IMG/VR virus record: IMGVR_UViG_3300021255_002251
Reading direction: 5' to 3' (one strand)
Length of the DNA: 64,000 nucleotides
Source of the DNA: a virus
Taxonomy: Duplodnaviria; Heunggongvirae; Uroviricota; Caudoviricetes
Part shown: positions 3,324-53,100 of the stretch, piece by piece
How the letters are laid out: each line of letters opens with the position of its first letter
Position numbering within the stretch: position 1 is the stretch's first letter
The notes under the pieces: model-generated
What the model was told of the DNA's origin: nothing
What the model saw: the letters and a program-made list of their open reading frames with translations, nothing else
Databases searched by the model: none
Made by a program: the position numbers and the translations under genes

Positions 3324-3902
3324 TTAGTTGCCCTTCATCGTCTGGTCTAGAAGCCCGATGTTAAGCAGACAGTTCTGCGAAATCTGGTCGAGTACCGCAA
3401 CCGTGCCAGACTTCAAATCAGGATAGTTGTTCTTGATAGCCTCAATCTTGTGCATTGTCTGCAGGCAGATGTTCATGAGGCCACCAATGAAATACTTGTC
3501 GTCCGAAGGATACATCACCTCAATGCCTACCGCATTTGCACATACTTCCTTCATCCGAGGAGGTGTGATTCCCCTCTCGCCCATGAAGTAGATTTCGGCT
3601 ATCTTGTCGGTCTCGTCGGCGAGCTGCCAAGTGAGATCGCCTAACTGGTGAAGCCCATAGAAAGCCTTGCCCTTGCACCGATAGTGCATATCCTTTGCGC
3701 ACATCCCGATGCACTTCAGATAAGCCATAAGGTCGGTCATCTCCGCATCGGGGAAGGCAGGAGCAGGTGGAATTGCCTCAATGGGTGGGGTAAGCCCCAC
3801 GGGTGCGACAGGCGCTTCTGGCGCAACAACTATCGTCTCCACTGCTGCGGGGGATTCTCCGAGCAGATAACCAGCCAAATCAGTCTTGATGTTGTCAGGC
3901 AT
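3324..3902 (-). CDS. hypothetical protein
   Basis: 192-aa ORF in the minus-strand gene train; Pro/Ala-rich N-terminus. Confidence 0.4.
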   Translation of the reverse strand: MPDNIKTDLAGYLLGESPAAVETIVVAPEAPVAPVGLTPPIEAIPPAPAFPDAEMTDLMAYLKCIGMCAKDMHYRCKGKAFYGLHQLGDLTWQLADETDKIAEIYFMGERGITPPRMKEVCANAVGIEVMYPSDDKYFIGGLMNICLQTMHKIEAIKNNYPDLKSGTVAVLDQISQNCLLNIGLLDQTMKGN

Positions 3903-4091
3903 TTCTTGTTACCTCACTTTTGGTTCTTTCGATTACCGTTTTCTTGATTCCTCTTTTGCAATTCCGCAGGCTATCGAGAGTGACCGGCCTTTTTGTGAGT
4001 GAGCATTTAGATTCGTCCACATTGCACAGTCCGCATTCCCTGCAGGACAATTTCTCGCTTGCCATCTGTTTCAGTCCACTTCCTTGCTTTA

Positions 4092-5338: not shown

Positions 5339-6511
5339 TTAGAAGAATCCGGGCAAAATCCCCGTATTGTCTACCTTCTTTGACTTCTTAGGCATTCCAC
5401 CAACAAGCCTCTCGTCGGTAATGTTCAATCCTTGAGTCCCCTTTGCCTTGTGAAGTTTCTCCTTTAGCGTCTCATTCGCCTTGCGCAGCGCCATCGCCTC
5501 ATTCTCTAGCCTGCGAATCCGCTCGTCCTTCTTCTTCTCCGCATTGGCGGCGGCTCGCTTCTCCGCCTTGATGTATGCGGGAGACAGTTTGCCGTTCTGG
5601 AACTTGTCGCAAGGCTCTTCCGAATTAGGATTCAGAATGAACTTCTTGAACTTCTCCAGCGATTTCTTGTCACGATTGGAAGACACCGCAATTGACATGA
5701 ACACTGGAAACTTCTTGCAGATGTTGATCCATCGTGCATGGGCCGCCTGCTTGGTAATCGACTTGACCTTTCTTGTCTTCGGGTCTACAATCGAATATGG
5801 AAACCAGAGCATCTTGGCGAACTCCGCTATGTTCATTCCTGACATGAGGCAAGACAACAGCAGTTTATCTATGATGTCTAGCGACACGAAGTTGGCGAAC
5901 TCCTTCCGCAACCTGTCCTCTACCTCTGGGGGGAGCATTGTAGATGTCTTGTATTCGCTATTCTCAAAAGCTTCTGGCTCCTCCTTCATCATGAGGTTGA
6001 CATCTGGAGCATGACCATATGCTTTCTCATCGACATCTGGCGCTCTGTGCATCCCTATCCAGTCTGCGCGAGAGAGCACAACGTTATCGTCTGTATGCGT
6101 TGACTTCGCCCTTCCAGAATTTGCTTGACAGTTCCCGCTGTCGAGAGAAACGAACGTCTGTCCATGATTCGACGGGTTATCGTCGTTGGAGACGCTAGAA
6201 CATGTCAGGCACACGACCTGAAATGCCTGACGCAGTTCGTCAATAACCTCTTCCATCTTGTCCGCATCGCTATCTGCGGCTTTTAGAAGGTCGTCTATCC
6301 TAGTGGCCCATTCCTTGTTCAGCCTGTCGATTAAGGCAGGAGACTTGAGGTCTAGCCCCTGGCACTTCGCACAGACTGCTTTGAATACCACCTTAAGATT
6401 GTTTACTGCAGCGATAATCTCCTTTGTCTTCATTCTTCCGAGCGAATTGTCTAGGTTCGCCTGGGTGAAGGCAAATATTACGGGCTGCAGGCAGCATCTT
6501 GAACATTCCAA
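5339..6511 (-). CDS. hypothetical protein (390 aa)
   Basis: Long ORF with no recognisable motifs. Confidence 0.4.
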   Translation of the reverse strand: MECSRCCLQPVIFAFTQANLDNSLGRMKTKEIIAAVNNLKVVFKAVCAKCQGLDLKSPALIDRLNKEWATRIDDLLKAADSDADKMEEVIDELRQAFQVVCLTCSSVSNDDNPSNHGQTFVSLDSGNCQANSGRAKSTHTDDNVVLSRADWIGMHRAPDVDEKAYGHAPDVNLMMKEEPEAFENSEYKTSTMLPPEVEDRLRKEFANFVSLDIIDKLLLSCLMSGMNIAEFAKMLWFPYSIVDPKTRKVKSITKQAAHARWINICKKFPVFMSIAVSSNRDKKSLEKFKKFILNPNSEEPCDKFQNGKLSPAYIKAEKRAAANAEKKKDERIRRLENEAMALRKANETLKEKLHKAKGTQGLNITDERLVGGMPKKSKKVDNTGILPGFF

Positions 6512-20089: not shown

Positions 20090-20875
20090 TCATCGGAAGA
20101 TTTGCTTGCCGGCGAAACCATTTCCCAGCATAGTGCTCTGTGGGTTCTCATATGCCCGTAGGGTCTTGTCGCTCTTCAATTCGTTCCACAGCGCTTCATA
20201 CGACTTGCGCGAATCGTAGTGTCGAAGAAGAGCATTTGTAAACTGCCCTCCTGTTGAAGCTCCATACGAATAGGTATCGTCAGGGCATCCGCTCCAGCAC
20301 AGCATCGAGAACTTCTGCTGCTCATTCAACCTATGATCCCACGATAGAGGTGGCCGAACCTTAAACCCAGGAGCGCGATACATCGTCTGCGAATGGCAAC
20401 AATCAAAGTATAGGAACACCCTCCCCTTGCTCTTGCTTATGATGCTCCATATCTCATTGTCTCGCATGTAAGTATCGTAGAGACATAGGAACTCATCCTT
20501 CCCGTCCACCTCTTCATTTCCAGTATTGTAAAACGGCTCGCTCCCTCCGTGTCCGGAATAGCAGAATATCACAAGCCCATCCGTTGCGCTTGCAATGGCC
20601 TTGTTCAATGCAGCCGTCACATTCGCTTTCGTGGCATTGGAATCTCTAAAGAGAACAATGTTCGGAGTATATGCCGATAGAAGCTTAAACATCCTATTCG
20701 CATCGTACCCCGCCCCCGGACAATCGCCAGCGAACCTCGAATTCTCCATACCAACAACCACCACATATGTGTTGGTTGATTTCGCTTCTGGCTGTATAGT
20801 TCCATCGGACTTGCATCCGCCGAATCCTAGACACATTCCAAACGCAACTAGAAATGCCATTACATGCTTCTTCAT
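20090..20875 (-). CDS. lipoprotein with caspase-like (peptidase C14) domain
   Basis: Lipobox MKKHVMAFLVAFGMCLGFGGC. Catalytic dyad context YSGHGG (His) and FDCCHSQ (Cys), as in caspase / metacaspase / CHAT folds. Confidence 0.55.
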   Translation of the reverse strand: MKKHVMAFLVAFGMCLGFGGCKSDGTIQPEAKSTNTYVVVVGMENSRFAGDCPGAGYDANRMFKLLSAYTPNIVLFRDSNATKANVTAALNKAIASATDGLVIFCYSGHGGSEPFYNTGNEEVDGKDEFLCLYDTYMRDNEIWSIISKSKGRVFLYFDCCHSQTMYRAPGFKVRPPLSWDHRLNEQQKFSMLCWSGCPDDTYSYGASTGGQFTNALLRHYDSRKSYEALWNELKSDKTLRAYENPQSTMLGNGFAGKQIFR

Positions 20876-33471: not shown

Positions 33472-34656
33472 TTAGTCTTCCTGCTTCATCAAATAGCGGT
33501 TGCTTACCGCCTTGAATGAAAGATTATGGATTGTATTGCTCTTGAAAACAATCCCCTCACGCTCATTCCCCCTAGCCGTCTTGCCCTCTGCGAACATAAG
33601 GACTGCATCCATGGTAGGATATTCCGTGAATACCTTTATAGACGGGCTAATGAGCTGAACATGTTGCAACCCAAGTTTCTCACACACTTCGCGCCGGTTA
33701 TTGGGAAGCAAATACATCTGGTTCTTGATGTCGTAAATCTTGAATACATGCCATTCATGTTCCTGATACTTGTCTCTATCGGCATTTATGCCTGGTCCAA
33801 CCAGTTCTCCTTGAATCGCATATTCAAGTCCTTCGGACTCAAATAGGTTCTTCAACTTCTTCTCGACATCATACTTCTCTGCCATCTGATACCCGAGAGG
33901 AATCCCGCCTTTTGCAAGTTCCGACTTGATTCGAAGATTCCTAGTGCAAACGCCAAAAGGTATTTCAGCATCAATGGTAGGAGAGTAAAACATCGTAAGA
34001 GAAGCCCCGTCATCTTTGGCAGTTGCTTCCCAGTCCATGTCTTTGTACTTCTCAAACCAGTCACTGAGATTCTGAACCCTTTCCTCATCAGTCTTAGGGC
34101 AATAGTCAGATGGGAACCTACCAATTGCATCTGCACTAATCGGATTACTGCCAGTTATCGGTTGTAACTGCTCTTTCACCTCATCATAATGTTCTACCTT
34201 AAGCAGCCTTGTAACATCTGCCCCCAACAATGGCTGTAGAACAAATTGTCCGTTATCAGTCTCCAAGGCTATCGTATCCGTGCCGTCTCCTTTAATCCCT
34301 CCCCCCTGACAACAATAGGCGATTTCGGGAAAGTCTGATATCGGCATGACAAGTCCCTGCGACACAACTCCACGCAACTTGCATGTCTTTATCCTTATGC
34401 CTTGGCGAATAACGTTCCCGCTCTTGCTAACGAACTTCTTTAAGCATCTGTCTTTTAGGAATGCATATCGGGCATCAGAATCATCAAGAAACGAATCTAT
34501 CTCAAAATACACGGCTAAGTCGCCAACATGAAACTCTCCTTTCTGGGTAACAACCTTCCAGCCCTTACCTTTCATCTCGACCCCCTCTAGGCGGTCGGCA
34601 TTTTCTATTGGCGAAACCTTACTGATTTCAACTATGCTCGCTAGTTTTCTAGACAT
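33472..34656 (-). CDS. ATP-dependent RNA ligase with N-terminal OB-fold tRNA-binding-like domain
   Basis: N-terminal KLASIVEISKVSPIENADRLEGVEM...VGDLAVYFEIDSFL (Myf/EMAP-like). Nucleotidyltransferase motif I KDDGAS (KxDG). Motif IV/V EGIVFK. Confidence 0.6.
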   Translation of the reverse strand: MSRKLASIVEISKVSPIENADRLEGVEMKGKGWKVVTQKGEFHVGDLAVYFEIDSFLDDSDARYAFLKDRCLKKFVSKSGNVIRQGIRIKTCKLRGVVSQGLVMPISDFPEIAYCCQGGGIKGDGTDTIALETDNGQFVLQPLLGADVTRLLKVEHYDEVKEQLQPITGSNPISADAIGRFPSDYCPKTDEERVQNLSDWFEKYKDMDWEATAKDDGASLTMFYSPTIDAEIPFGVCTRNLRIKSELAKGGIPLGYQMAEKYDVEKKLKNLFESEGLEYAIQGELVGPGINADRDKYQEHEWHVFKIYDIKNQMYLLPNNRREVCEKLGLQHVQLISPSIKVFTEYPTMDAVLMFAEGKTARGNEREGIVFKSNTIHNLSFKAVSNRYLMKQED

Positions 34657-42650: not shown

Positions 42651-44507
42651 CTATGCCACCTTTTCAAACTTGTTTATTGGGAACGATCGAATAAGATTCA
42701 CTATGCCCTTTGCCGTTGCAGTATGCAGAACCTTTATCGCATTGACAACAATTGCGACATCTTCCCCATCCTTCCCTATCCTTATGAGAAGCCGTATCAG
42801 ATAGTCATGCCATAGCTGTCTCGCAAAATACAACATCCGTATTTTGTCTGAGACAGTAGAGAAGTCTGACGAGTCGAAGTTAGACATTATCGTTATGAAT
42901 GCCTTGTATTCATCTGTAGACAACGATTCTACGGATTCCCTAATGCTATCAGTCTCACCTTCCTTATAGGACAATATGCTCTTTACAATCTTCCTAGAAG
43001 TGTTGGAACCGATGATTTCGATTGGAATCAATTTGTCCAAGCAAGACTTGATGGTTGCATCACCCTTCTTATTGAGAAGGAAGTTTATCAAAGCCCCTTC
43101 GGTTACAGAAGGAGGGGCATTCACATCGGCGGCATTACCAGCGACAATCGGCTCTATGAGCTGTTCCGCCGATTTGCTCTGGTCTTCCTCTTCTGCCTTC
43201 GTTGTCTTGGCTATCTCACTAGCCAAGGTAGAATACTCTACTCCTAATCGTTTTGCCGCCTCCTTAAGAAGCAATGAACGATGTACCTTGTCTTTGCATT
43301 TCGCTATAGTCTCTAGTACGGCTCTAGTAATCCTCACAGCGGCATTTGTCTCATCTGGATTCTGCTCCGCTGCTCTCGCCGCTCTTATCTGGAACTGAAC
43401 GATAGATTCAGCATTGGAAGCAATGAGGTTTGAAAAGGAGTCCTTCCCATGTTTCAAGATATAGGAATCTGGATCGTCTCCATCTGGAAGGGCCAACACT
43501 CTGATTGGCATACCCTCGGCAAGAAGCAACTGTGCGGCTTTTATCGTTGCCTTGTGCCCTGCTCCATCGTCGTCGAAACATAGAAGGGCATTGTCGGCAA
43601 CCCTATGGAGCATAACGGCATGGTCTTCCGTGAATGCCGTTCCCAATGGAGCAATAGCCGTATTGAACCCATTTGCATGAAGCCGTATGCAATCTATCTG
43701 CCCCTCACATATTATCGCTTCTCTGTTCGGAGCCTTCACGATGTTCTTGCGGGCTTCGTCGAATGCAAAGAATGTTCTTGATTTTTTGAATATCATCGTC
43801 TCTGGCGAGTTGACGTACTTCCCGCTTTTCTTGTCTTCAACCAACTGGCGTCCAGAAAAAGCTACCACCTGCCCATTCTTATCCTTGATTGCGAACACGA
43901 GACGATTTGCGAAATAGAAATATGGTGGACGGATTGCAGAGCCGCTAACCTTTATAATTCCTGCTGCCGCGAGGTCTTTATATGAGTATCCGTGTCTCCC
44001 AGCCCATGCTAGAATTTTATCTACCTCTTTTGGGGCATATCCTATGAGGAACTTGTCAACAATGGTTGCATCTAGTTCCCGCCCCTTAATATATTCTCTA
44101 GCCAGGTCTGCATCTTTGCATCGTGTAGACTTGAGCATCTTGTTAAAGTCTAAGGCCAGCTCCGACATGATTGCATAGAGCCGTTTTCTAGTCTTCACTG
44201 CTGGATTTTCTGCTGCATGAAGTTCTATCCCGACAGATGATGCGAGCTTCCGTATCGCATCTCCAAAAGAAAGCCCCTCCTGCTTCATCACAAAAGAGAA
44301 CACATCTCCACTCTCACCGCAGCCGAAGCAGTGGTATGTGCCACGTGTCACATCTACCTTGAAACTAGGGGTCTTTTCGTTGTGAAATGGGCAGCAGCAC
44401 CAAAGTTCGCTTCCTCTTGGCTTTAAAGAGAATCCATAAGAGGATATGAGGTCGGCTATGTCAACCTTTGCTTTTACCTCTTCCTTCTGTTCTTCTGAAA
44501 TAGCCAT
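42651..44507 (-). CDS. DNA primase (DnaG-like: CHC2 zinc finger plus TOPRIM)
   Basis: CCCPFHNEKTPSF...YHCFGCGESGD zinc-binding domain. TOPRIM ICEGQIDCIRL...LCFDDDGAGHKATIKA. Confidence 0.85.
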   Translation of the reverse strand: MAISEEQKEEVKAKVDIADLISSYGFSLKPRGSELWCCCPFHNEKTPSFKVDVTRGTYHCFGCGESGDVFSFVMKQEGLSFGDAIRKLASSVGIELHAAENPAVKTRKRLYAIMSELALDFNKMLKSTRCKDADLAREYIKGRELDATIVDKFLIGYAPKEVDKILAWAGRHGYSYKDLAAAGIIKVSGSAIRPPYFYFANRLVFAIKDKNGQVVAFSGRQLVEDKKSGKYVNSPETMIFKKSRTFFAFDEARKNIVKAPNREAIICEGQIDCIRLHANGFNTAIAPLGTAFTEDHAVMLHRVADNALLCFDDDGAGHKATIKAAQLLLAEGMPIRVLALPDGDDPDSYILKHGKDSFSNLIASNAESIVQFQIRAARAAEQNPDETNAAVRITRAVLETIAKCKDKVHRSLLLKEAAKRLGVEYSTLASEIAKTTKAEEEDQSKSAEQLIEPIVAGNAADVNAPPSVTEGALINFLLNKKGDATIKSCLDKLIPIEIIGSNTSRKIVKSILSYKEGETDSIRESVESLSTDEYKAFITIMSNFDSSDFSTVSDKIRMLYFARQLWHDYLIRLLIRIGKDGEDVAIVVNAIKVLHTATAKGIVNLIRSFPINKFEKVA

Positions 44508-45355
44508 TACCCCGCCACCTTGTCCTTTCCTGTCGGGAAGGGCTCATTAAACGACATCTCCCTTATGCAGCCTGGGTTCAGTTCTAGCAATTTTATCTTA
44601 TATGCGATATTGTATTCTTCGTTCACTCGGGACACGTTCCACATATTGACTATTGAGTTTTCAAGACTCGTATGTAGCGTGGTGCATCTATGGTCTCCGC
44701 TATGAATGTGTCCGAAAATAACCATTCTTGGAGCTCTCGCATCTATCACCCTAGCTAGGCTATTGCTCCCGAAGTGGCGGCGATATTTAGTAGGATAGTC
44801 TAGACTCATGTCAGCCTCATGATACTTCATTAGAGGCGGAGAATGTGTTATGAGAACATCAACTCTTGCTGGCATCTGCAAGAACCTGTCTGCAAGGTCT
44901 TCATCATCAGCTTCAAAGCACCATCTTCCGTTTATGTATGGCACCCACGGAGTCCCATAGAACCTAATGCCTTTTATCGTCACTTCCTCATCAATCAGAA
45001 GATGGAAGTTCTTTGGAACACGCGAGTATTCTCCTCTCTTGATTGCTTCATACTTGCTAGACAGATAGAAGTCGTGATTGCCAGGAATCGCTACCACTTC
45101 ACAATTTAGTTTCGATATAAGCGGAAAGAACTTGCGCTCAAACCAGTATGGCTTGCTTGTGAAAAGGTCTGCGGGTTCTATGTCACCAGCTATTACAAGT
45201 ATGTCAACATTTCTCGAAAAGCATACTTCTTGTATGCCCTCTACGTGACCATGGATATCGCTAGTTGCAGCGAGTACAAGCGGCTTTCCTATTCTTTCAA
45301 ACATGATCCTTGAATCTCCCCATTGCCAAGTCTCCACCAATCTTAAGACGGGCAA
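44507..45355 (-). CDS. calcineurin-like metallophosphoesterase (second copy)
   Basis: TSDIHGH, GDI, GNHD, GHIHSGDH motifs. Confidence 0.8.
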   Translation of the reverse strand: MPVLRLVETWQWGDSRIMFERIGKPLVLAATSDIHGHVEGIQEVCFSRNVDILVIAGDIEPADLFTSKPYWFERKFFPLISKLNCEVVAIPGNHDFYLSSKYEAIKRGEYSRVPKNFHLLIDEEVTIKGIRFYGTPWVPYINGRWCFEADDEDLADRFLQMPARVDVLITHSPPLMKYHEADMSLDYPTKYRRHFGSNSLARVIDARAPRMVIFGHIHSGDHRCTTLHTSLENSIVNMWNVSRVNEEYNIAYKIKLLELNPGCIREMSFNEPFPTGKDKVAG

Positions 45356-47847: not shown

Positions 47848-49773
47848 CTACTTCGCAAGCAGGTTGATGAGAGTATCCTTCTCAAGATTCGTGAAGTCAA
47901 TGTCTGGCTTCTCTTCAGAATCCTTGTCCAGAACCTCAAACCCCGCACGATAGAGGATTTCCTTCAGCCCGATGAAGCACTTTGCTTTCTTCTTTAGACC
48001 TTCAATGATGACTGGGGCATACTTGCCGGTTGAAACACGGCGATTGCCAGTCCCCATCTGCATCAAGTAGAAGCGATTATCGAGCATCATACCGATAGTC
48101 ATCTGCCGCCCAGTCTCATCAGCCTCATGTTCCATCATGGTATCAAACCGAATGTTGTTCGGGTCTACCATGTGGTTCTTCATGTGTTTAACATCAAGGC
48201 ACTCATTGGCGAAGAAGAAGCGGAACTTAGACTTAGGCTCACCCCAATACTGGTTCACCATCACAATTCCGTCAGGAGCATCGTTCCTCATGAAGAGGAG
48301 TTCGACAGCCTCTGGATTCGCATTGGTGATGTCACCAGAGTAGATTACAGAGTTGTTGTCTCCGTTCCTATCCCCATTGTACCATGACGAGTTCCATCCG
48401 ATACGATTTCCGCGCAGGTCGGTCATCGAGAGATCGTAGTCCCTCGTTCCCCATTCATTCCGCCAGTAGATACCAACAACGTTGTTCTTCGTCATCCCAA
48501 AAGAAGTCCCGTAGGGGAAGTTCCCAACGAAATTCTTCTCCGATGTCGGAAGGACAAGTTCGTAATGCTCCGGCAGACGCACCTTGCAAGCCTTGACCTT
48601 GATGGACTCACAAAGAGATTCCTCAAGGAGGAAGTAGAGCCTAGCAATCCAGTTCTTGTCGTACTTCGGGGAATACTGCTCACGGACGAACTGCTTACCA
48701 TTCCTGATGGTGAACACACCTGTTGTTGTCGGGAAGCCCATCCGCTCCTTGCATAGCATCATAAGACGAACCTTGCGGAAGTTGTCAAGTTCGCCAAGGC
48801 GCTTCTTGACATCTTCCACCGGCTGCGGTTCCTTAATGATGTTCTCCCAGAACCCAATCTTGAAAGGCTTGTGATTCTTATCCGCAAGACGGCGGAGACG
48901 ATTCACGATTCCAGAGACCTTCCTATCTTTCTTCTCTCCTCCCTTCATGGCGAGGAAGATTGGCTTGAAGCGCAGGAATATACGCGATAGCCGCTCAATC
49001 TGCTTGTCGGAGAGATTGAGAAGAGGAGACCGAAATCCGCTCTCTTCTGCCTTCTTCTTGATTGTCGCAATCGTAGCACGGCTCTTGATGAGCGCAGGCT
49101 TCCCAACGTAAGCAAGTGCAATGCAACGAAGCATGCCGAACTCATCTGCAGGAAGAATGTTCATCTTCTGAGAGAGGTAAGCCATAGCTTCCTTGTTCTT
49201 CACAAGCGAAAGGGCCTCCGACAAATCACTCTTCTTCCAATCAATGCCATGTACTCTGGTCTCATACCAGAAGTCGCACATGACCTTCATCGTGCCCTCC
49301 TTGAGGGCGATGCCTGCCTTGAGAACTTCAAAACACTTGCCAGCCATCTCATCGTTCGTGATAGGCTCAATGACCTTGAGGTCTTCAAAGCGAGGAACCA
49401 TGCCTCCGTCGTTCGGAGTCCATCCGTTACCATCAATCTCCTTCCCATCCAGCATCTTACCGTATGTGGAGGCATAGTGCCTAATCTGGTCGAGGAAAAT
49501 CTCAAACCGAGACTTTGAAATCACATCATTCCACTCCTTGTAGAATGTTGCATTGTAGTTTGCGGTAAGGGTGTCAAGCCACTCATCCACAAACCTGTTG
49601 CAGCATTCCGGGCTGATGATATAGCCCAACTTAACCGCCTTCTTGTTGATTGCGGCAAAGTCACGATTGTCGTTCTTGTCCGATGCGACCAACCCCTTCT
49701 TGAAGTAGTCGATCAGTGCAGTGTGCATTTGCATTGTCGTTTTCCTTTTGGTTGTTTTTGTTGTTTTTAACAT
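47848..49773 (-). CDS. hypothetical protein (641 aa)
   Basis: Long ORF immediately downstream (in transcript order) of the tRNA array. No Walker motifs, so it is not called a terminase. Confidence 0.5.
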   Translation of the reverse strand: MLKTTKTTKRKTTMQMHTALIDYFKKGLVASDKNDNRDFAAINKKAVKLGYIISPECCNRFVDEWLDTLTANYNATFYKEWNDVISKSRFEIFLDQIRHYASTYGKMLDGKEIDGNGWTPNDGGMVPRFEDLKVIEPITNDEMAGKCFEVLKAGIALKEGTMKVMCDFWYETRVHGIDWKKSDLSEALSLVKNKEAMAYLSQKMNILPADEFGMLRCIALAYVGKPALIKSRATIATIKKKAEESGFRSPLLNLSDKQIERLSRIFLRFKPIFLAMKGGEKKDRKVSGIVNRLRRLADKNHKPFKIGFWENIIKEPQPVEDVKKRLGELDNFRKVRLMMLCKERMGFPTTTGVFTIRNGKQFVREQYSPKYDKNWIARLYFLLEESLCESIKVKACKVRLPEHYELVLPTSEKNFVGNFPYGTSFGMTKNNVVGIYWRNEWGTRDYDLSMTDLRGNRIGWNSSWYNGDRNGDNNSVIYSGDITNANPEAVELLFMRNDAPDGIVMVNQYWGEPKSKFRFFFANECLDVKHMKNHMVDPNNIRFDTMMEHEADETGRQMTIGMMLDNRFYLMQMGTGNRRVSTGKYAPVIIEGLKKKAKCFIGLKEILYRAGFEVLDKDSEEKPDIDFTNLEKDTLINLLAK

Positions 49774-49944
49774 AGGCGGGGTGTACTAGCATCTCCCAAG
49801 AAGGTGGAAGAGACATAGGAACACCGGCTGCCCAAAGAAGAGAAAAGGAGCGGGAAGTATTTTCATTGATTAACAGTCAAGTGCCCAAAGGGCTTAATAG
49901 GAACTTCCTATGCTCAAAAAACCGTGTGCGATGTGTATGTCTAG

Positions 49945-50018
49945 TCAATCGCTCTACCACCTGAGCTACACGAACAGCTAAGCCGTCCATGGCAGGACTC
50001 GAACCCGCGACTAATTGA
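49945..50018 (-). ncRNA. permuted tRNA-like unit 1: 3' half (T-arm 49992-50008, acceptor-3' 49985-49991), 9-nt linker, 5' half (acceptor-5' 49969-49975, D-arm 49950-49968)
   Basis: In the minus-strand RNA the order is TCAAT-TAGTC-GCGGGTTCGAGTCCTGC-CATGGAC-G-GCTTAGCT-GTTCGTG-TA-GCTCAGGTGGTAGAGC-G-ATTGA. The acceptor strands pair 7/7 (GTTCGTG with CATGGAC, including G-U pairs) and the anticodon-stem halves pair 5/5 (ATTGA with TCAAT), but only in permuted order. Confidence 0.35.
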
Positions 50019-50264
50019 TTTCAGAAATAGGAACACAATATGCACACCTATGGTAAACGGCGAGAAGTATCTGAACCGAAAGAAGCCTGTGGCTTCTTGA
50101 TGGAGTCGAACCATCAAGTAATAGGAACTTCCTATGCCGTAAAATCAACAGAGACGGAGAGTAAATGACACATGGTTGTTGCCACGTGCTTCGTTCGCAG
50201 CGAATGATAGGAACTCTCGATGTCTCTAAAATGAACATGAAAACGAAAAGCGGCGGAATGTATT

Positions 50265-50338
50265 ATAAGGCGCTCTACCACTGAGCTAAATGGAGGCATA
50301 AGCCATCCACTACGGGATTCGAACCCGCGACCTCCTGC
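50265..50338 (-). ncRNA. permuted tRNA-like unit 2 (same 3' half, 9-nt linker, 5' half architecture)
   Basis: CCCGT-AGTGGAT-GGCTTATGC-CTCCATT-TA-GCTCAGTGGTAGAGCG. The acceptor pairs 6/7; the linker has the same length and the same GGCTTA start as unit 1. Confidence 0.3.
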
Positions 50339-50568
50339 TTACCAGGCATTAATAGGAACATTCTTTGCCGCAAAAAGAGATTTGTGCGAGTAGTATGGAT
50401 TTCATGGTGGAGGCTTATGCCGCGCCCCCAAGCGGTTAATAGGAACTACCTCTGCACAAAGAAATAAAAAGGGCGGAGAGTATCTTTCATCCAAAGAAAA
50501 ATAGGAACCCTCTTTGCCCAAAAATAGTTTTCAATTCATACGCCCCACTCGAGGGACGACCTAAACGA

Positions 50569-50641
50569 TGAAACCAGATGGACTCGAACCACCTCCTTCC
50601 AACGATTAATTGGAAATGCTTTCCTGTTACACCATGGTTTC
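50569..50641 (-). ncRNA. tRNA-like gene with an unusual anticodon loop (UUAAUCG) and no encoded CCA
   Basis: Acceptor GAAACCA / TGGTTTC pairs 7/7. T-arm GGTGG-TTCGAGT-CCATC. The anticodon stem TCCAA/TTGGA encloses TTAATCG, which has a pyrimidine at position 37; the anticodon assignment is ambiguous. Confidence 0.35.
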
Positions 50642-50867
50642 ACGTGGGAACTTTCCGAGTACCCAAAACTCCTGTTCCTTTGCGATACATGCGGTCTCTG
50701 ATATCTCCCAAGCCGAGCTTCCAGAAACAACTTGTAAACACCCATCGCATGAACAGCCTATCTCTTCAGTGGACCGTCACCGGATTAGCACCGTGCTGCC
50801 AGACCTATCGTTGCATGCTTGATTAGCACCCCTTGTACTTCGGGGCCGAACAGCCTGACTCTAAAGA

Positions 50868-50942
50868 TGGAGCAAGATGCCGAACTCGCATCGGCGTAAA
50901 CTACCTTGGAAGGGTAGCGCATAACTTCTCTGCCAATCTTGC
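50868..50942 (-). tRNA. tRNA-Gly(TCC)
   Basis: Cloverleaf by hand. Acceptor GCAAGAT/ATCTTGC, anticodon arm CTACC-CTTCCAA-GGTAG, T-arm GCCGA-TGCGAGT-TCGGC, CCA encoded. Confidence 0.7.
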
Positions 50943-50947
50943 AAAAA

Positions 50948-51022
50948 TGGAGCGAACTACGGGATTCGAACCCATGACCTCATCCTTGGCAAGGATACGT
51001 ACTACCACTGTACTAAGTCCGC
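50948..51022 (-). tRNA. tRNA-Gly(GCC)
   Basis: Acceptor GCGGACT/AGTTCGC (G4-U69), anticodon loop TTGCCAA, T-arm ATGGG-TTCGAAT-CCCGT, CCA encoded. Confidence 0.8.
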
Positions 51023-51113
51023 ATTTGCCCCTTATCCCACCACTTTCAGCGGGGGCTACCTCGTTTCCTCATATAGACCGACAGAGCGGGACTCCGGCGG
51101 AGAGGCTTCTAAA

Positions 51114-51189
51114 TGGAGCGACAGATGGGTTACGATCCCACGACATCAACCTTGGGAAGGTTGCACTCTACCAACTGAGTTACTGTCGC
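51114..51189 (-). tRNA. tRNA-Gly(CCC)
   Basis: Acceptor GCGACAG/CTGTCGC, anticodon arm CAACC-TTCCCAA-GGTTG, CCA encoded. Confidence 0.8.
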
Positions 51190-51196
51190 ATGAAAT

Positions 51197-51276
51197 TGGT
51201 GGAACCGATGGGAGTCGAACCCACTATTTGTCTGCTTGCAAAGCAGATGCCTTTACCACACTCGAGCCACGGCCCC
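51197..51276 (-). tRNA. tRNA-Ala(TGC)
   Basis: Acceptor GGGGCCG/CGGTTCC with G3-U70, anticodon arm TCTGC-TTTGCAA-GCAGA, CCA encoded. Confidence 0.75.
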
Positions 51277-51587
51277 ATTGAAAATGTTTACCAGCGGTTC
51301 TCAGATGCTTTTAGTTTTGTGGTATCGCATCCACAAACTTCAACCGCAGTCATAGCATCATTAGGCTCTTGGATTCGATAGGCATACATCCCATTCGGGC
51401 ATCGCTACCGTTCATGCCTAAAGTTTGGTTCTGCCTTACACGTTTCCTGCAAGGTGGAATCCAATGGTATGCAGAATTTAGCCTTTTGAGCCTATCTGCG
51501 TCTCGCCGCAATGTGAAATCCATCACTACAATGAGGAGCGACATCAAGGTCGGGACTCTTGTTGTTTGAACTAATACCATCAGAAAT

Positions 51588-51661
51588 TGGTGGACACGTT
51601 GAGAATCGAACTCAAGTCTTCTCGTTGCGAACGAGATGTTCTACCACTGAACTAGCGGCCC
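51588..51661 (-). tRNA. tRNA-Ala(CGC)-like; acceptor stem imperfect
   Basis: D-arm, anticodon arm TCTCG-TTCGCAA-CGAGA and T-arm TTGAG-TTCGATT-CTCAA are canonical. G3-U70 is present, but the 5' GGGCCGC versus 3' CGTGTCC strands leave three mismatches at positions 5-7. Confidence 0.45.
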
Positions 51662-51804
51662 ATGAAAATAAAGGACGATTGTCAAGAAGGACATCGTATT
51701 TCCATTAATGCCCATCACGTTTTCTTTCCCCAACTATTCACCCCAACGAAATCATTGGAATTGGGAAATGATAAACACTGATTTTGTCACAACCGCCATG
51801 GAAA

Positions 51805-51878
51805 TGGTGGACACGGCAGGAATTGAACCTGCATCTCTTCTCTGCCAGAGAAGCATTCTACCGTTGAACTATCGGCCC
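51805..51878 (-). tRNA. tRNA-Ala(GGC)-like; acceptor stem imperfect
   Basis: Anticodon arm CTTCT-CTGGCAG-AGAAG, T-arm GCAGG-TTCAATT-CCTGC, G3-U70 present. 5' GGGCCGA versus 3' CGTGTCC gives the same mismatch pattern as the Ala(CGC) gene. Confidence 0.45.
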
Positions 51879-51891
51879 ATTGAAATCGTTT

Positions 51892-51968
51892 TGGTGGACC
51901 CTGTAGGGAACGATCCTACAACCGTCTGGGTATGGGCCAGATGCTCTAACCAATTGAGCTAAGGGTCC
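51892..51968 (-). tRNA. tRNA-Met/Ile2(CAT), elongator type
   Basis: Acceptor GGACCCT/AGGGTCC (G1-C72 paired), anticodon loop CCCATAC, CCA encoded. Confidence 0.8.
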
Positions 51969-51973
51969 GAAAT

Positions 51974-52051
51974 TGGTCGGAGTGGAGGGATTCGAACCCC
52001 CGACGTTCTGCTCCCAAAGCAGACGCTCTGGCCAGGCTGAGCTACACTCCG
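51974..52051 (-). tRNA. tRNA-Pro(TGG)
   Basis: Acceptor CGGAGTG/CACTCCG, anticodon arm TCTGC-TTTGGGA-GCAGA, CCA encoded. Confidence 0.8.
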
Positions 52052-52056
52052 CTTGA

Positions 52057-52128
52057 AGCCCCCTGTCGGAAACGAACCGACGACCTCCATCTTACCAAGA
52101 TGGCATTCTACCACTGAACTAAGGGGGC
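52057..52128 (-). tRNA. tRNA-Thr(GGT)
   Basis: Acceptor GCCCCCT/AGGGGGC, anticodon arm CCATC-TTGGTAA-GATGG, no encoded CCA. Confidence 0.8.
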
Positions 52129-52131
52129 GTC

Positions 52132-52206
52132 TGGAGCCCCCGCCTAGACTCGAACTAGGAAATCCACTGTACGAAAGTGGCGGTTTTCCATTACACCTAC
52201 GGAGGC
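52132..52206 (-). tRNA. tRNA-Thr(CGT)
   Basis: Acceptor GCCTCCG/CGGGGGC (one G-U pair), anticodon arm CCACT-TTCGTAC-AGTGG, CCA encoded. Confidence 0.75.
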
Positions 52207-52214
52207 AAGTCTCA

Positions 52215-52302
52215 TGGAGCCAAGGAGCGGATTTGAACCGCTGTGTCCTTTCGGAGCGGGTGTACAAAACCCGTGCAATCAGCCAGACTATGCGACCTTG
52301 GC
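52215..52302 (-). tRNA. 88-nt tRNA with long variable arm (type-II-like) and apparent anticodon TGT (Thr)
   Basis: Acceptor GCCAAGG/CCTTGGC. A perfect anticodon stem CGGGT/ACCCG encloses TTTGTAC. A 14-nt extra arm CTCCGAAAGGACAC follows. T-arm AGCGG-TTCAAAT-CCGCT, CCA encoded. Confidence 0.5.
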
Positions 52303-52307
52303 AAAAT

Positions 52308-52382
52308 TGGCGGGGCTAGCGGTAATCGAAACCACATCAGTAGCTTAGAAGGCAACTGCTCTATCCGTTGAGCTATAGCCCC
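52308..52382 (-). tRNA. tRNA-Arg(TCT)
   Basis: Acceptor GGGGCTA/TAGCCCC, anticodon loop CTTCTAA, CCA encoded. Confidence 0.75.
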
Positions 52383-52391
52383 TCTTTGAAA

Positions 52392-52468
52392 TGGTGCGGG
52401 AGACTGGAATCGAACCAGCAACCTACAGTTTAGGAAACTGCCGCTCTGTCCGATTGAGCTACACCCGC
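52392..52468 (-). tRNA. tRNA-Arg(CCT)
   Basis: Acceptor GCGGGTG/CTCCCGC (one U-U mismatch), anticodon arm GCAGT-TTCCTAA-ACTGT, CCA encoded. Confidence 0.75.
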
Positions 52469-52470
52469 AT

Positions 52471-52548
52471 TGGTGAGGCTAGTGAGAATCGAACTCACAC
52501 AAGTCCTACCTTCGGAGGGTAGCGCTCTCTCCATTGAGCTATAGCCTC
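52471..52548 (-). tRNA. tRNA-Arg(CCG)
   Basis: Acceptor GAGGCTA/TAGCCTC, anticodon arm CTACC-CTCCGAA-GGTAG, CCA encoded. Confidence 0.8.
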
Positions 52549-52551
52549 TTC

Positions 52552-52627
52552 TGGTAGGGACGGACGGAATCGAACCGCCGACATATTCCGTGTAAAGGAA
52601 TCGCTCTGCCACCTGAGCTACATCCCC
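52552..52627 (-). tRNA. tRNA-Val(TAC)
   Basis: Acceptor GGGGATG/CGTCCCT (two G-U pairs), anticodon arm ATTCC-TTTACAC-GGAAT, CCA encoded. First gene of the array downstream of promoter 53101-53139. Confidence 0.8.
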
Positions 52628-53100
52628 GATTTAAAACACTTGTGGGCTTCCTCCGCCAAGATTCACCTCACAATCATGGGAGGCTACTTCCCAGCAGACT
52701 CACACCCACTCTACCCGTTAGACTGATTAGGAATCGGGCAGCAAACAGAATAGAGCGGTAGTACGGTTGGCTCTTTTCCAGAGTATCACTCTGGCAGTCT
52801 GCGCTTCACACACCGCTCCCCCAACCTAACTGATTAGGTAAGATTGGGAAATCGAAGTCTTTTGCCACTATTCTTGGCCCCTGGTTAAACTCCTTCAAAG
52901 ACATAGAAGGAAGGTCTTTATGTGGTACGGCCGATGTTACTCTGCCGATTGCTCCACAGAAACTTGTGGTAGCCGTGGGGACTCAAACCAACCCCATTCG
53001 GCGGCTACAGAAATTCAACGTCCAATTGTCAAAGAACCATTAGGAGGAATCTCTTTCTTGCCCATCTAGGTTCATGGCCTTGTTCCTCGAAACGCAGTAT

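What the first reader, a model, noticed from the sequence alone, without database searches (positions are those of the whole stretch)
49945..50338. tRNA-like units in circularly permuted order (3' half, 9-nt linker, 5' half)
Two neighbouring units each show a canonical T-arm and 3' acceptor strand, then a 9-nt linker beginning GGCTTA, then a 5' acceptor strand and a canonical D-arm (TAGCTCAGGTGGTAGAGCG). Within a unit the acceptor strands pair with each other (7/7 for unit 1 including G-U pairs; 6/7 for unit 2). In unit 1 the anticodon-stem halves ATTGA and TCAAT also pair 5/5. These pairings work only in the permuted order, not with the halves of adjacent units in conventional order. Permuted tRNA genes are known from a few eukaryotic algae and archaea. 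In a phage this would be most unusual.

Alternative explanations: remnants of tRNA genes split by recombination or by insertion of the palindromic AATAGGAAC elements; or tRNA-mimicking processing or decoy structures.
Basis: seen in the sequence. Interest (0 to 1): 0.7.

Follow-up and report, generated by a model that had tools for sequence, protein, structure and literature searches.

The report
Phage tRNA-mimic small RNA array
The two "back-to-front tRNAs" are real but are not tRNA genes: they are tRNA look-alike modules mounted on a conserved RNA stem, two of eight such small RNAs lined up in front of one conserved large-phage gene, resembling bacterial Y RNAs but without the usual Ro60 partner protein.

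Summary
On the minus strand, two units (50251-50370 and 49926-50045) read T-arm, closed acceptor-like stem-loop, D-arm, and all pairings hold.

The interpretation as circularly permuted tRNA genes is not supported. There is no anticodon loop and no bulge-helix-bulge motif.

This order is the topology of YrlA, the bacterial Y-RNA-like tRNA mimic. Rfam YrlA matches both units at 40.4 and 33.8 bits. That is below the gathering score, but the published mycobacteriophage ET08 YrlA scores only 37.4.

Both modules sit on a conserved two-part closing stem: GC-AWA-NNNNGU-UCCUAU ... AU-ACNNNN-C-GC. Eight tandem units (49774-50519) share it, between a tRNA array and a 628-aa gene. The stem covaries strongly across 34 units.

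The scaffold occurs in 1-10 copies immediately upstream of homologues of that gene. This holds in 52 of 76 loci sampled by protein, with none on the opposite strand. It also holds in the cultured cyanophages S-CRM01 and S-CBWM1.

The protein has no Pfam domain. Its C-terminal domain has a TerD-like fold, and it is not Ro60. No Ro60 gene is present in the window or in the complete S-CRM01 and S-CBWM1 genomes.

Most likely this is a Y-RNA-like modular RNA family with a different protein partner. Binding and function are inferred, not shown.

The parts
50567..52627 (-). tRNA array (15-16 ordinary tRNAs) directly upstream, in the direction of transcription, of the unit array
   Evidence: ARAGORN and Rfam tRNA. 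No minus-strand sigma-70-like promoter between this array and the units, so co-transcription is plausible (inferred).
50471..50519 (-). Unit a: minimal scaffold. GGGC-AAA-GAGGGU-UCCUAU, 17-nt insert, AU-ACUCUC-C-GCCC.
   Evidence: (the minimum-free-energy fold recovers both stems).
50384..50457 (-). Unit b: scaffold (GUGC-AGA-GGUAGU / ACUACU-C-GCAC). The insert is a 6-bp minihelix GGGGGC...GCCUCC followed by ACCAUGAAA (50405-50429).
   Evidence: A partial tmRNA/acceptor match (E = 0.0028). The same insert type occurs in L120 and L127.
50251..50370 (-). V hairpin 50334-50346, T-arm 50312-50328, acceptor-like stem-loop 50289-50311, D-arm 50271-50288.
   Evidence: Rfam YrlA 33.8 bits, E = 2.8e-5. 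RNAfold, z = -2.29. Orthologue in L120 5261-5385. Covariation.
50152..50225 (-). Unit d: scaffold AGAGAC-AUC-GAGAGU / ACUCUC-C-GUCUCU with two small hairpins as insert
   Evidence: (z = -3.06). Orthologue in L120 5044-5122.
50058..50139 (-). Unit e: scaffold CGGC-AUA-GGAAGU / ACUUCU-C-GCCG. The insert is a T-arm-like hairpin (50097-50117, loop UUCGACU) plus a second hairpin.
   Evidence: The same architecture is seen in S-CRM01 unit 5.
49926..50045 (-). Anticodon-like stem 50014-50018 with 49945-49949, T-arm 49992-50008, 7-bp acceptor-like stem with 9-nt loop 49969-49991, D-arm 49950-49968.
   Evidence: Rfam YrlA 40.4 bits over the full model 1-114, E = 3.5e-7. RNAfold. Covariation.
49848..49915 (-). 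Unit g: scaffold GAGC-AUA-GGAAGU / ACUUCC-C-GCUC with two hairpins. The first covaries with L120, L122 and L127 orthologues; the second is UUGACUGUUAAUCAA.
49774..49833 (-). Unit h: last scaffold unit (GGGC-AGC-CGGUGU / ACACCC-C-GCCU), ending about 40 nt before the start codon of the 628-aa gene
   Evidence: (z = -2.88).
47848..49734 (-). Conserved 628-aa gene. The listed ORF starts at 49773, but homologues support ATG 49734 preceded by AAGGAA. Helical N-domain of no recognised fold plus a TerD-like beta-sandwich. Inferred partner of the scaffold RNAs.

Best explanation
The two units are not tRNA genes. They are tRNA-mimic modules with the topology of YrlA, the bacterial Y-RNA-like RNA: T-arm, an acceptor-like stem closed by a loop, then D-arm. 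The would-be anticodon stem serves as the connector.

Each module is mounted on a conserved two-part closing stem:
- an outer helix ending in G-C
- a 3-nt AWA bulge opposite a single C
- a 6-bp helix ending G-C, U-A
- the single-stranded bases UCCUAU on the 5' side and AU on the 3' side

They are two of eight tandem small-RNA units that share this scaffold and differ in the apical insert. The units are transcribed on the minus strand, downstream of the phage's tRNA array and immediately upstream of a conserved 628-aa gene.

Shown:
- the structures and their covariation
- the strand specificity
- the tight linkage of the scaffold to this gene family across many large phages
- the absence of Ro60

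Inferred:
- The units are co-transcribed with the tRNAs and the gene, then processed into separate small RNAs.
- The invariant stem is the binding site of the 628-aa protein, so that scaffold plus protein form a ribonucleoprotein analogous in layout to Ro60-Y RNA.
- The apical modules (tRNA elbows in either topology, a minihelix followed by ACCA, hairpins) present tRNA-like surfaces to tRNA-handling enzymes or to host tRNA-directed defences. This would be part of the phage's tRNA supply and RNA-repair toolkit.
- Where only one copy lies in the 5' UTR, it probably also lets the protein regulate its own mRNA.
For: Identity of the tRNA-like modules:
- Rfam YrlA matches both units (E = 3.5e-7 and 2.8e-5) and their counterparts in relatives at 35.9-44.7 bits.
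- The published ET08 phage YrlA scores 37.4 bits on the same model. The sub-threshold scores therefore equal those of an accepted phage member.
- Chen et al. 2014 define YrlA by T, AS, D and an optional V stem-loop. Unit c also has the V hairpin.

The scaffold is a real RNA structure:
- RNAfold recovers the two-part closing stem in all eight units independently.
- Across 34 units the stem is 91.4% paired, with covariation 0.71 against 0.20 in shuffles (0 of 500) and 0.08-0.18 when the partners are slid.
- There are 13 G-U cells and no A-C mismatches, so the structure is RNA from this strand.
- Ten full tRNA-like units are 97.1% paired, and 18 of 25 pairs are compensatory.
- GTTCCTAT occurs 14 times in the window against 1.8 expected. 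Eight of these lie on one strand within about 700 nt.

Linkage to the protein:
- Units lie immediately 5' of homologues at 29-93% identity in L120, L122, L124, L127-L132, L091 and L105.
- A motif-only scan of viral contigs gave 38 stretches. About 21 of them end at a family gene.
- The genome-contig scan serves as a control. Six of 9 matches with stem complementarity have the gene adjacent, against 0 of 9 matches without complementarity.
- In the protein-first sample, 52 of 76 loci have a strict unit within 600 nt upstream on the same strand, 6 have one downstream, and 0 have one on the opposite strand.
- Contigs with extra units elsewhere, often inside tRNA arrays, all also encode the protein.
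- Sigma-70-like promoters precede the first unit in L124 and L091. The units are therefore transcribed with the gene.

Other support:
- Unit types are conserved as orthologues with compensatory changes.
- The cultured phages S-CRM01 (5 units, one YrlA-like) and S-CBWM1 (1 unit) have the same layout inside their tRNA arrays.
Against: - No expression or binding data exist. The RNA-protein partnership rests on gene linkage alone.
- Both units are below Rfam's YrlA gathering score (69 bits).
- The scaffold lacks the GNCGAAN0-1G motif of YrlA. The match to YrlA is carried by the tRNA-like part, which could be convergent reuse of a tRNA.
- Two homologue loci (L123, Phass-1) lack units, as do about a third of protein-sampled loci under strict criteria.
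- A single copy in a 5' UTR is equally what a purely cis-regulatory element would look like.
- T-runs follow several units, which is compatible with termination or processing roles.
Confidence: 0.68

Rival explanations
1. The scaffold is only a cis-acting leader element of the 628-aa gene, for example an autoregulatory operator, a 5' stabiliser hairpin or an attenuator. The extra copies and their inserts would be duplications without a trans-acting role.
For: - Many relatives have just one or two short units between a promoter and the ribosome-binding site of the gene (L124, L129-L132, S-CBWM1).
- The last unit always ends 15-45 nt before the start codon.
- T-runs follow several units.
Against: - Arrays reach up to 10 units. 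Their distinct insert types are conserved as orthologues with compensatory changes.
- 27 of 135 units carry tRNA-like or T-arm modules.
- Units also occur kilobases away from the gene, inside tRNA arrays, in genomes that encode the protein elsewhere. In L006/L337 and L182 they lie downstream of the gene.
- The ribosome-binding site is not sequestered by the stem.
Confidence: 0.14
2. The stems are RNA-processing punctuation, that is host RNase III- or RNase E-type sites like the T7 early-mRNA processing hairpins. They would cut the polycistronic tRNA/mRNA transcript, and no dedicated phage protein would be involved.
For: - The units lie within or at the end of tRNA arrays.
- The bipartite stem with an asymmetric internal loop resembles phage RNase III sites. 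This comparison is from my own knowledge and was not tested.
- T-rich spacers separate the units.
Against: - Invariant single-stranded bases (UCCUA 5' of the insert, U before AC, the bulged C, A at the first and third bulge positions) persist across phages binned with very different hosts: cyanobacteria, Bacteroidales, Fibrobacter, Atribacterota.
- The motif co-occurs specifically with one phage protein family.
- It is absent from 80 Ro60-encoding phage loci.
Confidence: 0.08
3. These are canonical Ro60-YrlA Y RNAs. The Ro60 (Rsr) partner would be encoded elsewhere in the roughly 250-kb phage genome or supplied by the host.
For: - YrlA is the only Rfam family matched, and the scores equal those of the ET08 phage YrlA.
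- Some jumbo phages encode ROT/TROVE proteins (PMC7824862).
- Only 64 kb of this genome is in hand.
- Many cyanobacteria encode Ro60 (Chen et al. 2014).
Against: - There is no TROVE gene in the window or in eight related loci (Pfam; Ro60 HMM with filters off).
- No Ro60 is detected by tblastn in the complete S-CRM01 and S-CBWM1 genomes, which carry the units.
- None of the 80 best viral Ro60 loci lies on a motif-bearing contig, and none carries the scaffold.
- The closing stem has GC-AWA-R in place of the GNCGAAN0-1G Rsr site. It also differs from the ET08 Y-RNA stems, which carry GCCGARG and CACCAUGU.
Confidence: 0.06
4. These are genuine circularly permuted tRNA genes. The precursor would be circularised and then opened at the acceptor end to give a functional tRNA.
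For: - The 3' half lies upstream of the 5' half, with a 7-bp acceptor stem and canonical D- and T-arms.
- The phage encodes an RNA ligase at 33472-34656.
- M. smegmatis YrlA, which also has a 7-bp acceptor-like stem, is cut by RNase P and receives CCA (PMC4201824).
Against: - No anticodon loop can be formed, because the anticodon-like stem continues into the conserved scaffold.
- There is no conserved bulge-helix-bulge motif.
- The linker loops vary from 4 to 9 nt among relatives.
- The same scaffold holds conventional-order tRNA-like bodies whose 'anticodon' loops are only 4-6 nt. Decoding is therefore not the selected feature.
Confidence: 0.02
5. These are decayed remnants of tRNA genes broken by recombination or by insertion of a repeated DNA element, with no function.
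For: - The units sit next to a tRNA array.
- GTTCCTAT is a repeated word, and in three units it is partly palindromic.
Against: - Compensatory base changes maintain every helix across lineages whose adjacent protein is down to 25-30% identical.
- The pairing is strand-specific, with G-U pairs but no A-C mismatches.
- The position relative to one gene family is conserved.
Confidence: 0.02

Closest known systems
YrlA / bacterial Y-RNA-like RNAs bound by Ro60 (Rsr); Rfam RF02553; Chen et al. 2014, RNA 20:1715 (PMC4201824)
   Same: - A modular small RNA with a long closing stem carrying a bulged protein-binding region.
- An apical tRNA-like domain in the order (V) T-arm, acceptor-like stem-loop, D-arm, with tRNA tertiary-contact bases kept.
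- Several different RNAs encoded in tandem on the same strand just upstream of the partner gene.
- Known in phages (22 in that study).
- The score on the Rfam model equals that of the ET08 phage YrlA.
   Different: - No Ro60/TROVE gene. The adjacent gene is an unrelated 628-aa protein with a TerD-like domain.
- The closing stem has a different conserved motif (GC-AWA-NNNNGU-UCCUAU / AU-ACNNNN-C-GC) in place of GNCGAAN0-1G.
- Arrays reach 10 units.
- The same scaffold also carries conventional-order tRNA-like bodies, T-arm-only inserts, minihelices followed by ACCA, and plain hairpins.
- Scores are below Rfam's gathering threshold.
Circularly permuted tRNA genes (Cyanidioschyzon merolae and other algae; some archaea)
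   Same: The 3' half (T-arm and 3' acceptor strand) lies upstream of the 5' half (5' acceptor strand and D-arm) in one transcription unit, joined by a short linker.
   Different: - Those genes have an anticodon loop split at the junction, a bulge-helix-bulge motif cut by the splicing endonuclease, and a circular intermediate. They yield decoding tRNAs.
- Here there is no anticodon loop and no BHB motif.
- The junction is a conserved stem shared with non-tRNA units.
Two-piece (permuted) tmRNA genes of alpha-proteobacteria and cyanobacteria
   Same: The acceptor/T-arm piece is encoded upstream of the 5' acceptor piece, and the RNA is a tRNA mimic rather than a tRNA.
   Different: tmRNA has a tag reading frame and pseudoknots. 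ARAGORN finds no tmRNA in the window, and the units are only 50-120 nt.
Phage RNase III processing hairpins (for example T7 R1.1-type sites)
   Same: Repeated stem-loops with an asymmetric internal loop between two short helices, placed between genes of a polycistronic phage transcript.
   Different: - This comparison is from my own knowledge and was not tested.
- The units keep invariant single-stranded bases across phages of very different hosts.
- They co-occur with one phage protein family.
- They carry elaborate conserved inserts.
TerD-family proteins (PDB 2qz7, 2kxt)
   Different: - No sequence-level match to the Pfam TerD model.
- The domain is fused to a roughly 380-aa helical domain with no clear structural relative.
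- No Ter operon context. The gene lies beside tRNA arrays and RNA-repair genes.

Membership tests
YrlA / bacterial Y RNA (RF02553) | tRNA-like domain in the order T-arm, acceptor-like stem-loop (AS), D-arm, with conserved T- and D-loop bases | tested here: met
   cmscan alignments, RNAfold, and the consensus fold with covariation over 10 units. Unit c also has the optional V hairpin.
YrlA / bacterial Y RNA (RF02553) | Score at or above Rfam's gathering threshold (69 bits) | tested here: not met
   40.4 and 33.8 bits. The published ET08 phage YrlA also fails, at 37.4 bits, so the threshold does not separate phage members.
YrlA / bacterial Y RNA (RF02553) | Closing stem carrying the GNCGAAN0-1G motif of the Rsr binding site (PMC4201824) | tested here: not met
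   The units have (G)GC-AWA-R... with A, not G, after GNC in 123 of 123 units. That A was required by the search. They also have a different conserved apical motif, UCCUAU/AU. ET08 stems carry GCCGARG and CACCAUGU.
YrlA / bacterial Y RNA (RF02553) | Encoded within about 4 kb of a Ro60/TROVE gene, on the same strand | tested here: not met
   - No TROVE match in the window's large ORFs.
- A Ro60 HMM found nothing in six-frame translations of the window and 8 related loci.
- tblastn found no Ro60 in the complete S-CRM01 or S-CBWM1 genomes.
- The rest of this phage's genome is not in hand.
YrlA / bacterial Y RNA (RF02553) | Physically bound by Ro60/Rsr | not testable with these tools
   Needs immunoprecipitation or gel-shift experiments.
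Circularly permuted tRNA gene | 3' half upstream of 5' half, with the acceptor strands pairing within the unit | tested here: met
   Direct reading: 7 of 7 and 6 of 7 pairs.
Circularly permuted tRNA gene | A 7-nt anticodon loop with an anticodon can be reconstituted at the junction of the precursor ends | tested here: not met
   The anticodon-like stem continues into the scaffold helices and no loop is present. The connector varies in length and sequence between units.
Circularly permuted tRNA gene | Bulge-helix-bulge (3-4-3) motif for the splicing endonuclease at the junction | tested here: not met
   The conserved junction is a 3x1 internal loop, then a 6-bp helix, then unpaired UCCUAU/AU. 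No conserved 3-nt bulges flank a 4-bp helix.
Circularly permuted tRNA gene | The organism encodes a tRNA splicing endonuclease | not tested
   Only the larger ORFs of the window were scanned against Pfam. None is an endonuclease of that family, but the scan was not exhaustive.
Two-piece (permuted) tmRNA | Tag-peptide reading frame and pseudoknots between the tRNA-like halves | tested here: not met
   ARAGORN reports no tmRNA. Only short acceptor or T-arm fragments match the Rfam tmRNA model, at 12.7-14 bits.
Ro60 / TROVE protein (for the adjacent 628-aa gene) | TROVE (PF05731) plus vWA domains detectable by sequence or profile | tested here: not met
   - No Pfam hit in 48 family members even at E <= 10.
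- hhalign of the family profile against a Ro60 profile gives probability 0.2%.
- No PDB sequence hit.
Ro60 / TROVE protein (for the adjacent 628-aa gene) | HEAT-repeat ring fold | tested here: inconclusive
TerD fold (C-terminal domain of the 628-aa protein) | TerD-type beta-sandwich | tested here: met

The most novel reading that the evidence does not exclude
The GC-AWA-NNNNGU-UCCUAU / AU-ACNNNN-C-GC stem and the roughly 600-640-aa helical plus TerD-like protein together form a previously undescribed phage ribonucleoprotein system. It would be widespread in jumbo and T4-like phages, from rumen and gut megaphages to the cultured cyanophage S-CRM01.

In this reading the system evolved independently of Ro60 yet converged on the Y-RNA design. 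One protein-binding scaffold displays interchangeable modules, notably tRNA elbows in both permuted and conventional topology and a minihelix followed by ACCA. Its role would be to engage tRNA-processing or repair enzymes, or to decoy host tRNA-directed defences, during infection.
Probability: 0.45. Interest if true: 0.85.

Novelty: new variant of a known kind. Interest (0 to 1): 0.72.

Why it matters
Y RNAs and their tRNA-like YrlA relatives are known only as partners of Ro60. What the tRNA-like domain does is still unsettled.

Here the same tRNA-mimic design sits on a different conserved scaffold. It is linked to a different, uncharacterised protein family with more than 1,300 members and no Pfam domain. 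The genomes concerned demonstrably lack Ro60, and the loci sit among tRNA arrays and often near RNA ligases and phosphoesterases.

This matters in four ways:
1. It gives a first functional handle on a common 'hypothetical' protein of large phages.
2. It adds a structured RNA family that is absent from Rfam.
3. It suggests that displaying a tRNA elbow on a protein-bound scaffold is a recurrent solution. The role of the tRNA mimic could therefore be studied in a second, independent system.
4. It is testable now, because the cultured cyanophages S-CRM01 and S-CBWM1 carry it.

It also corrects a tempting misreading: these are not permuted tRNA genes in a phage.

Tried and rejected
- **Near-identical phage DNA.** megablast of 49700-50700 against 50,697 phage records found nothing.
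- **First collection scan too loose.** The pattern GTTCCTAT-N54-84-GTTCCTAT gave mostly chance hits. One of them, L004, is a coding repeat with spacings in multiples of 9. I replaced it with a 20-base pattern.
- **First unit finder too permissive.** It returned many 8-9-pair chance hits. I tightened it by requiring AC, a bulged C and at least 9 of 10 pairs.
- **Ro60 hypothesis for the 628-aa protein.**
  - Pfam, PHROGs, NCBIfam and PADLOC gave nothing. The only exception is a 28-bit local NCBIfam match of the L091 homologue to a RING/SCO0854 model.
  - hhalign against Ro60 was negative.
  - Foldseek against the PDB was uninformative.
  - The AlphaFold-database libraries were unavailable.
- **Kink-turn reading of the 3-nt bulge.** Rejected by eye: the bases after the bulge form covarying Watson-Crick pairs, not tandem G-A pairs.
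- **Sigma-70 promoter reading of the motif.** Rejected: the spacing between the TTGnGC-like and TATTAA-like words is about 12 nt, and no minus-strand promoter was predicted in 49600-52800.
- **CRISPR-like array.** Rejected: the units covary internally rather than sharing identical repeats.
- **Literature.** Searches for YrlA or Y RNA in phages, TROVE with TerD, permuted tRNA in bacteriophage, and S-CRM01 tRNA or ncRNA found no description of this element. PMC5062991 (Burroughs and Aravind 2016) is not held.
Full report
**1. What is in the sequence**

The window carries a tRNA array on the minus strand. ARAGORN finds 15 genes at 50567-52627, and Rfam adds one more. The finding lies just downstream of that array on the same strand.

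Unit f (49926-50045) reads:
- TCAAT
- TAGTC
- T-arm GCGGGTTCGAGTCCTGC
- CATGGAC, 9-nt loop GGCTTAGCT, GTTCGTG
- D-arm TAGCTCAGGTGGTAGAGCG
- ATTGA

Unit c (50251-50370) reads:
- a small extra hairpin
- AGGTC
- T-arm GCGGGTTCGAATCCCGT
- AGTGGAT, GGCTTATGC, CTCCATT
- D-arm TAGCTCAGTGGTAGAGCG

The acceptor strands pair 7 of 7 and 6 of 7, and TCAAT pairs with ATTGA 5 of 5. The canonical tRNA tertiary-contact bases are in place. No conventional tRNA is predicted anywhere in 49774-50560.

**2. What the order means**

A permissive Rfam scan of 49700-50900 returned one relevant family, YrlA (RF02553, 'Y RNA-like'). Unit f matched at 40.4 bits over the whole model (E = 3.5e-7). Unit c matched at 33.8 bits (E = 2.8e-5).

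YrlA RNAs are bacterial and phage Y RNAs. Their defining feature is a tRNA-like domain in exactly this order: T-arm, 'acceptor-like' stem-loop, D-arm, often with a V hairpin before the T-arm. They also have a long stem that carries the Ro60 (Rsr) binding site, and they are encoded within 4 kb of rsr on the same strand (Chen et al. 2014, PMC4201824).

The scores are below Rfam's gathering threshold of 69 bits. As a control I fetched mycobacteriophage ET08, whose YrlA is in Figure 1 of that paper. It scores 37.4 bits on the same model. Phage members therefore sit at this level.

**3. The larger structure: eight units on one scaffold**

It occurs 14 times in the window against 1.8 expected. Eight occurrences lie on the minus strand between 49815 and 50508.

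Aligning the flanks shows that each occurrence is the 5' strand of a two-part stem whose 3' strand lies 17-88 nt downstream:
- outer helix of 4-6 bp, ending G-C
- AWA opposite a single C
- a 6-bp helix ending G-C, U-A
- unpaired UCCUAU(W)A on the 5' side and (A)U on the 3' side, enclosing a variable insert

RNAfold recovers this closing stem in all eight units independently.

The inserts are:
- a short loop (unit a)
- a 6-bp minihelix followed by ACCAUGAAA (unit b)
- small hairpins (units d, g, h)
- a T-arm-like hairpin plus a second hairpin (unit e)
- the two tRNA-like modules (units c, f)

Unit h ends about 40 nt before the start codon of a 628-aa gene (47848-49734, minus strand). The listed ORF begins at 49773, but homologues support ATG 49734.

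**4. Relatives and covariation**

Homologues of the 628-aa protein led to related contigs.
- L120 is a 251,769-bp contig at 93% identity. It has ten units between its tRNA array and the gene.
- L122, at 72% identity, has four units.

Further loci sampled by protein identity from 71% down to 42% have from about seven units down to one unit immediately 5' of the gene: L127, L128, L124, L129, L130, L131, L132. L123 has none.

Contigs found by the RNA motif alone (L091, L105, L107) turned out to have a homologue of the same protein directly downstream. hhalign gave E = 5.6e-66 at 29% identity for L091 and E = 9e-128 at 40% identity for L105.

On 34 trimmed units:
- The stem is 91.4% paired.
- Covariation is 0.71, against 0.20 ± 0.02 in shuffles (0 of 500) and 0.08-0.18 when the partners are slid.
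- There are 13 G-U cells and no A-C mismatches, so the structure belongs to RNA of this strand.

One caveat applies. Ten of the twelve pairs were part of my selection rule. A pair that was not part of the rule (columns 2 and 41) is still paired in 26 of 34 units with four pair types. The RNAfold result is also independent of the rule.

Ten full tRNA-like units from six lineages give an RNAalifold consensus of scaffold, T-arm, acceptor-like stem and D-arm. It is 97.1% paired, 18 of 25 pairs have compensatory changes, and all six acceptor-like pairs covary.

**5. How general the link to the gene is**

A specific 20-base pattern found 38 stretches in viral contigs, mostly on contigs of 50-500 kb. 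In about 21 of them the units end at a family gene.

The same pattern in bacterial and archaeal genome contigs served as a control. Of 18 matches:
- 9 have stem complementarity, and 6 of those have the gene adjacent. They lie on contigs binned as Atribacterota, Fibrobacter, Saprospiraceae, Bacteroidales and Gammaproteobacteria.
- 9 lack complementarity, and none of those has the gene adjacent.

In an unbiased protein-first sample of 76 viral loci (28-94% identity):
- 52 have at least one strict unit within 600 nt upstream on the same strand.
- 6 have one downstream.
- 0 have one on the opposite strand.

Contigs with additional units elsewhere, often between tRNAs as in L148, all also encode the protein.

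Eighty Ro60-encoding viral loci (288 kb) contain no such unit.

A census of 135 units gives:

| Insert type | Units |
|---|---|
| Short or hairpin insert | 108 |
| Permuted (T before D) tRNA-like module | 12 |
| Conventional-order tRNA-like module | 10 |
| T-arm only | 5 |

The 'anticodon' loops of the conventional-order modules are only 4-6 nt. The selected feature is therefore the tRNA body or elbow, not decoding.

**6. Cultured phages**

The tblastn hits include two Synechococcus phages. In both, the homologue sits inside the tRNA array.

S-CRM01 g174 is preceded by five units with a slightly variant core (UCCUGU, UCCUUU or UCCUCU).
- The second unit carries a permuted tRNA-like module that matches YrlA at 35.9 bits (E = 3e-6).
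- The fifth has the same T-arm-plus-hairpin insert as window unit e.

S-CBWM1 gp22 is preceded by one unit.

tblastn of ET08 Ro60 against all 50,697 phage records hits 357 records, and none is a Synechococcus phage. Complete genomes thus carry the system without Ro60.

**7. The protein**

The family has 1313 detected homologues, none with a Pfam domain. There are no PHROG, NCBIfam, PADLOC or PDB-sequence matches of note.

I therefore do not claim a Ro-like fold. The protein is a new family with a TerD-like domain. Its neighbours often include RNA ligases, metallophosphoesterases, PTH2, DnaJ and NAD-salvage genes. The window itself has an RNA ligase at 33472-34656 and a metallophosphoesterase at 44507-45355.

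**8. Mechanism**

Shown:
- The RNA structures are real and strand-specific.
- The tRNA-like modules have YrlA topology.
- The scaffold and the protein family co-occur and are adjacent.
- Sigma-70-like promoters precede the first unit in L124 and L091.
- No minus-strand promoter is predicted between the tRNA array and the units in the window.

Inferred:
- The units are co-transcribed with the tRNAs and the gene, then processed.
- The protein binds the invariant stem, as Ro60 binds the Y-RNA stem.
- The apical modules present tRNA-like surfaces to tRNA-handling enzymes or to host anti-tRNA defences.
- A single leader copy also allows autoregulation.

By analogy with M. smegmatis YrlA, which has a 7-bp acceptor-like stem, is cut by RNase P and receives CCA, units c and f might be cleaved in their linker loop. 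This is untested.

**9. Comparison and novelty**

Functionally and architecturally the closest known thing is the Ro60-YrlA system.

Membership in YrlA fails on three tested criteria:
- the Rsr-site motif
- an adjacent TROVE gene
- the gathering score

It passes on the tRNA-like topology.

Permuted tRNA genes fail on the anticodon loop and the bulge-helix-bulge motif. Permuted tmRNA fails on the tag reading frame and pseudoknots.

No Rfam family covers the scaffold. No paper in the held library describes it.

I classify it as a new variant of a known kind: a Y-RNA-like tRNA-mimic small RNA. There is a substantial chance that scaffold plus protein constitute a new ribonucleoprotein class.

**10. 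Verdict**

- The permuted-tRNA interpretation is not supported.
- The tRNA-mimic alternative is supported and greatly extended.
- Interest is 0.72.

Noticed in passing
window 50405-50429 (minus strand), unit b; also L120 about 5741-5775 and L127 about 3578-3612: The insert of unit b is a minihelix GGGGGC...GCCUCC with a G-U at the third pair, followed by ACCAUGAAA. This resembles a tRNA-Ala-like acceptor microhelix with discriminator A and CCA, but it is internal to the RNA. Orthologous units in L120 and L127 keep a 7-bp hairpin followed by ACCAUGAAA, with different stem sequences and no G3-U70.
   Followed up: partly
L148 about 3836-3953 (minus strand of the locus); L120 5137-5250; L127 3425-3539: Some scaffold units carry a conventional-order tRNA-like body (acceptor, D-arm, anticodon arm, T-arm) whose 'anticodon' loop is only 4-6 nt: GCAA in L148, AGGAAU in L120 and L127. 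The L148 unit also has an encoded CCA. ARAGORN calls two of them tRNA-??? with 2- or 4-base anticodons.
   Followed up: partly
L091 4448-4744 (+), contig IMGVR_UViG_3300037067_006484: A full-length bacterial class A RNase P RNA (148.8 bits, gathering score 100) lies inside the 34-tRNA array of a phage contig that also carries the scaffold units. This looks like a phage-encoded RNase P RNA.
   Followed up: no
L127 1815-2057 (+); TnpB-like genes in L123, L128 and L130: A HEARO (IS605/TnpB-associated) RNA scores 113.6 bits within the tRNA region of L127. OrfB_IS605/Cas12f-like TnpB genes recur next to the 628-aa gene in several relatives. Mobile elements seem to favour this region.
   Followed up: no
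L105 1739-1810 (-), contig IMGVR_UViG_3300044712_000732 (501 kb): An AT-rich 501-kb phage contig carrying four minimal scaffold units also encodes a tRNA with anticodon CUA, which ARAGORN calls tRNA-Pyl. This suggests an amber suppressor and possibly stop-codon recoding. Phass-1, a distant relative, is classed in a 'code 15' clade.
   Followed up: no
window 50567-50642 (-) and 51808-51878 (-): The last tRNA before the units is called tRNA-Ile with the unusual anticodon AAU, at a lower Rfam score (45.1 bits). A further tRNA at 51808-51878 is found by Rfam (49.2 bits) but not by ARAGORN.
   Followed up: no
L266 2210-2356 (HQ615693.1 132391-132537, S-CRM01 g173c) and L267 4605-4781 (S-CBWM1 pseudo-tRNAs): The annotated S-CRM01 ORF g173c lies on the strand opposite scaffold units 3-4, so it is probably not a real gene. 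S-CBWM1 has two annotated pseudo-tRNAs just downstream of its homologue gp22. I did not examine these for tRNA-mimic features.
   Followed up: no
L126 23150-23420 (mycobacteriophage ET08, upstream of Ro60 gp220): ET08 has two tandem Y-RNA-like stems. Both carry GCCGA(A/G)G on the 5' strand and CACCAUGU on the 3' strand. The CCACCAUG word recalls the ACCAUGAAA of window unit b, but this may be coincidence.
   Followed up: no
window 33472-34656 (-), 44507-45355 (-); L132 247-3846; L124 2943-3602: RNA ligase genes (PF09414 with the PHA02142 OB domain; PF09511 Rnl1) and metallophosphoesterases recur within a few kb of the 628-aa gene family. In L132 they lie immediately upstream. This points to an RNA-repair neighbourhood.
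   Followed up: partly
window 20410-20417 and 20485-20492 (-); 10009, 10288, 48364, 53876 (+): The other six GTTCCTAT occurrences in the window lie inside ORFs and have no complementary 3' strand. They are chance or coding occurrences, not scaffold units.
   Followed up: yes
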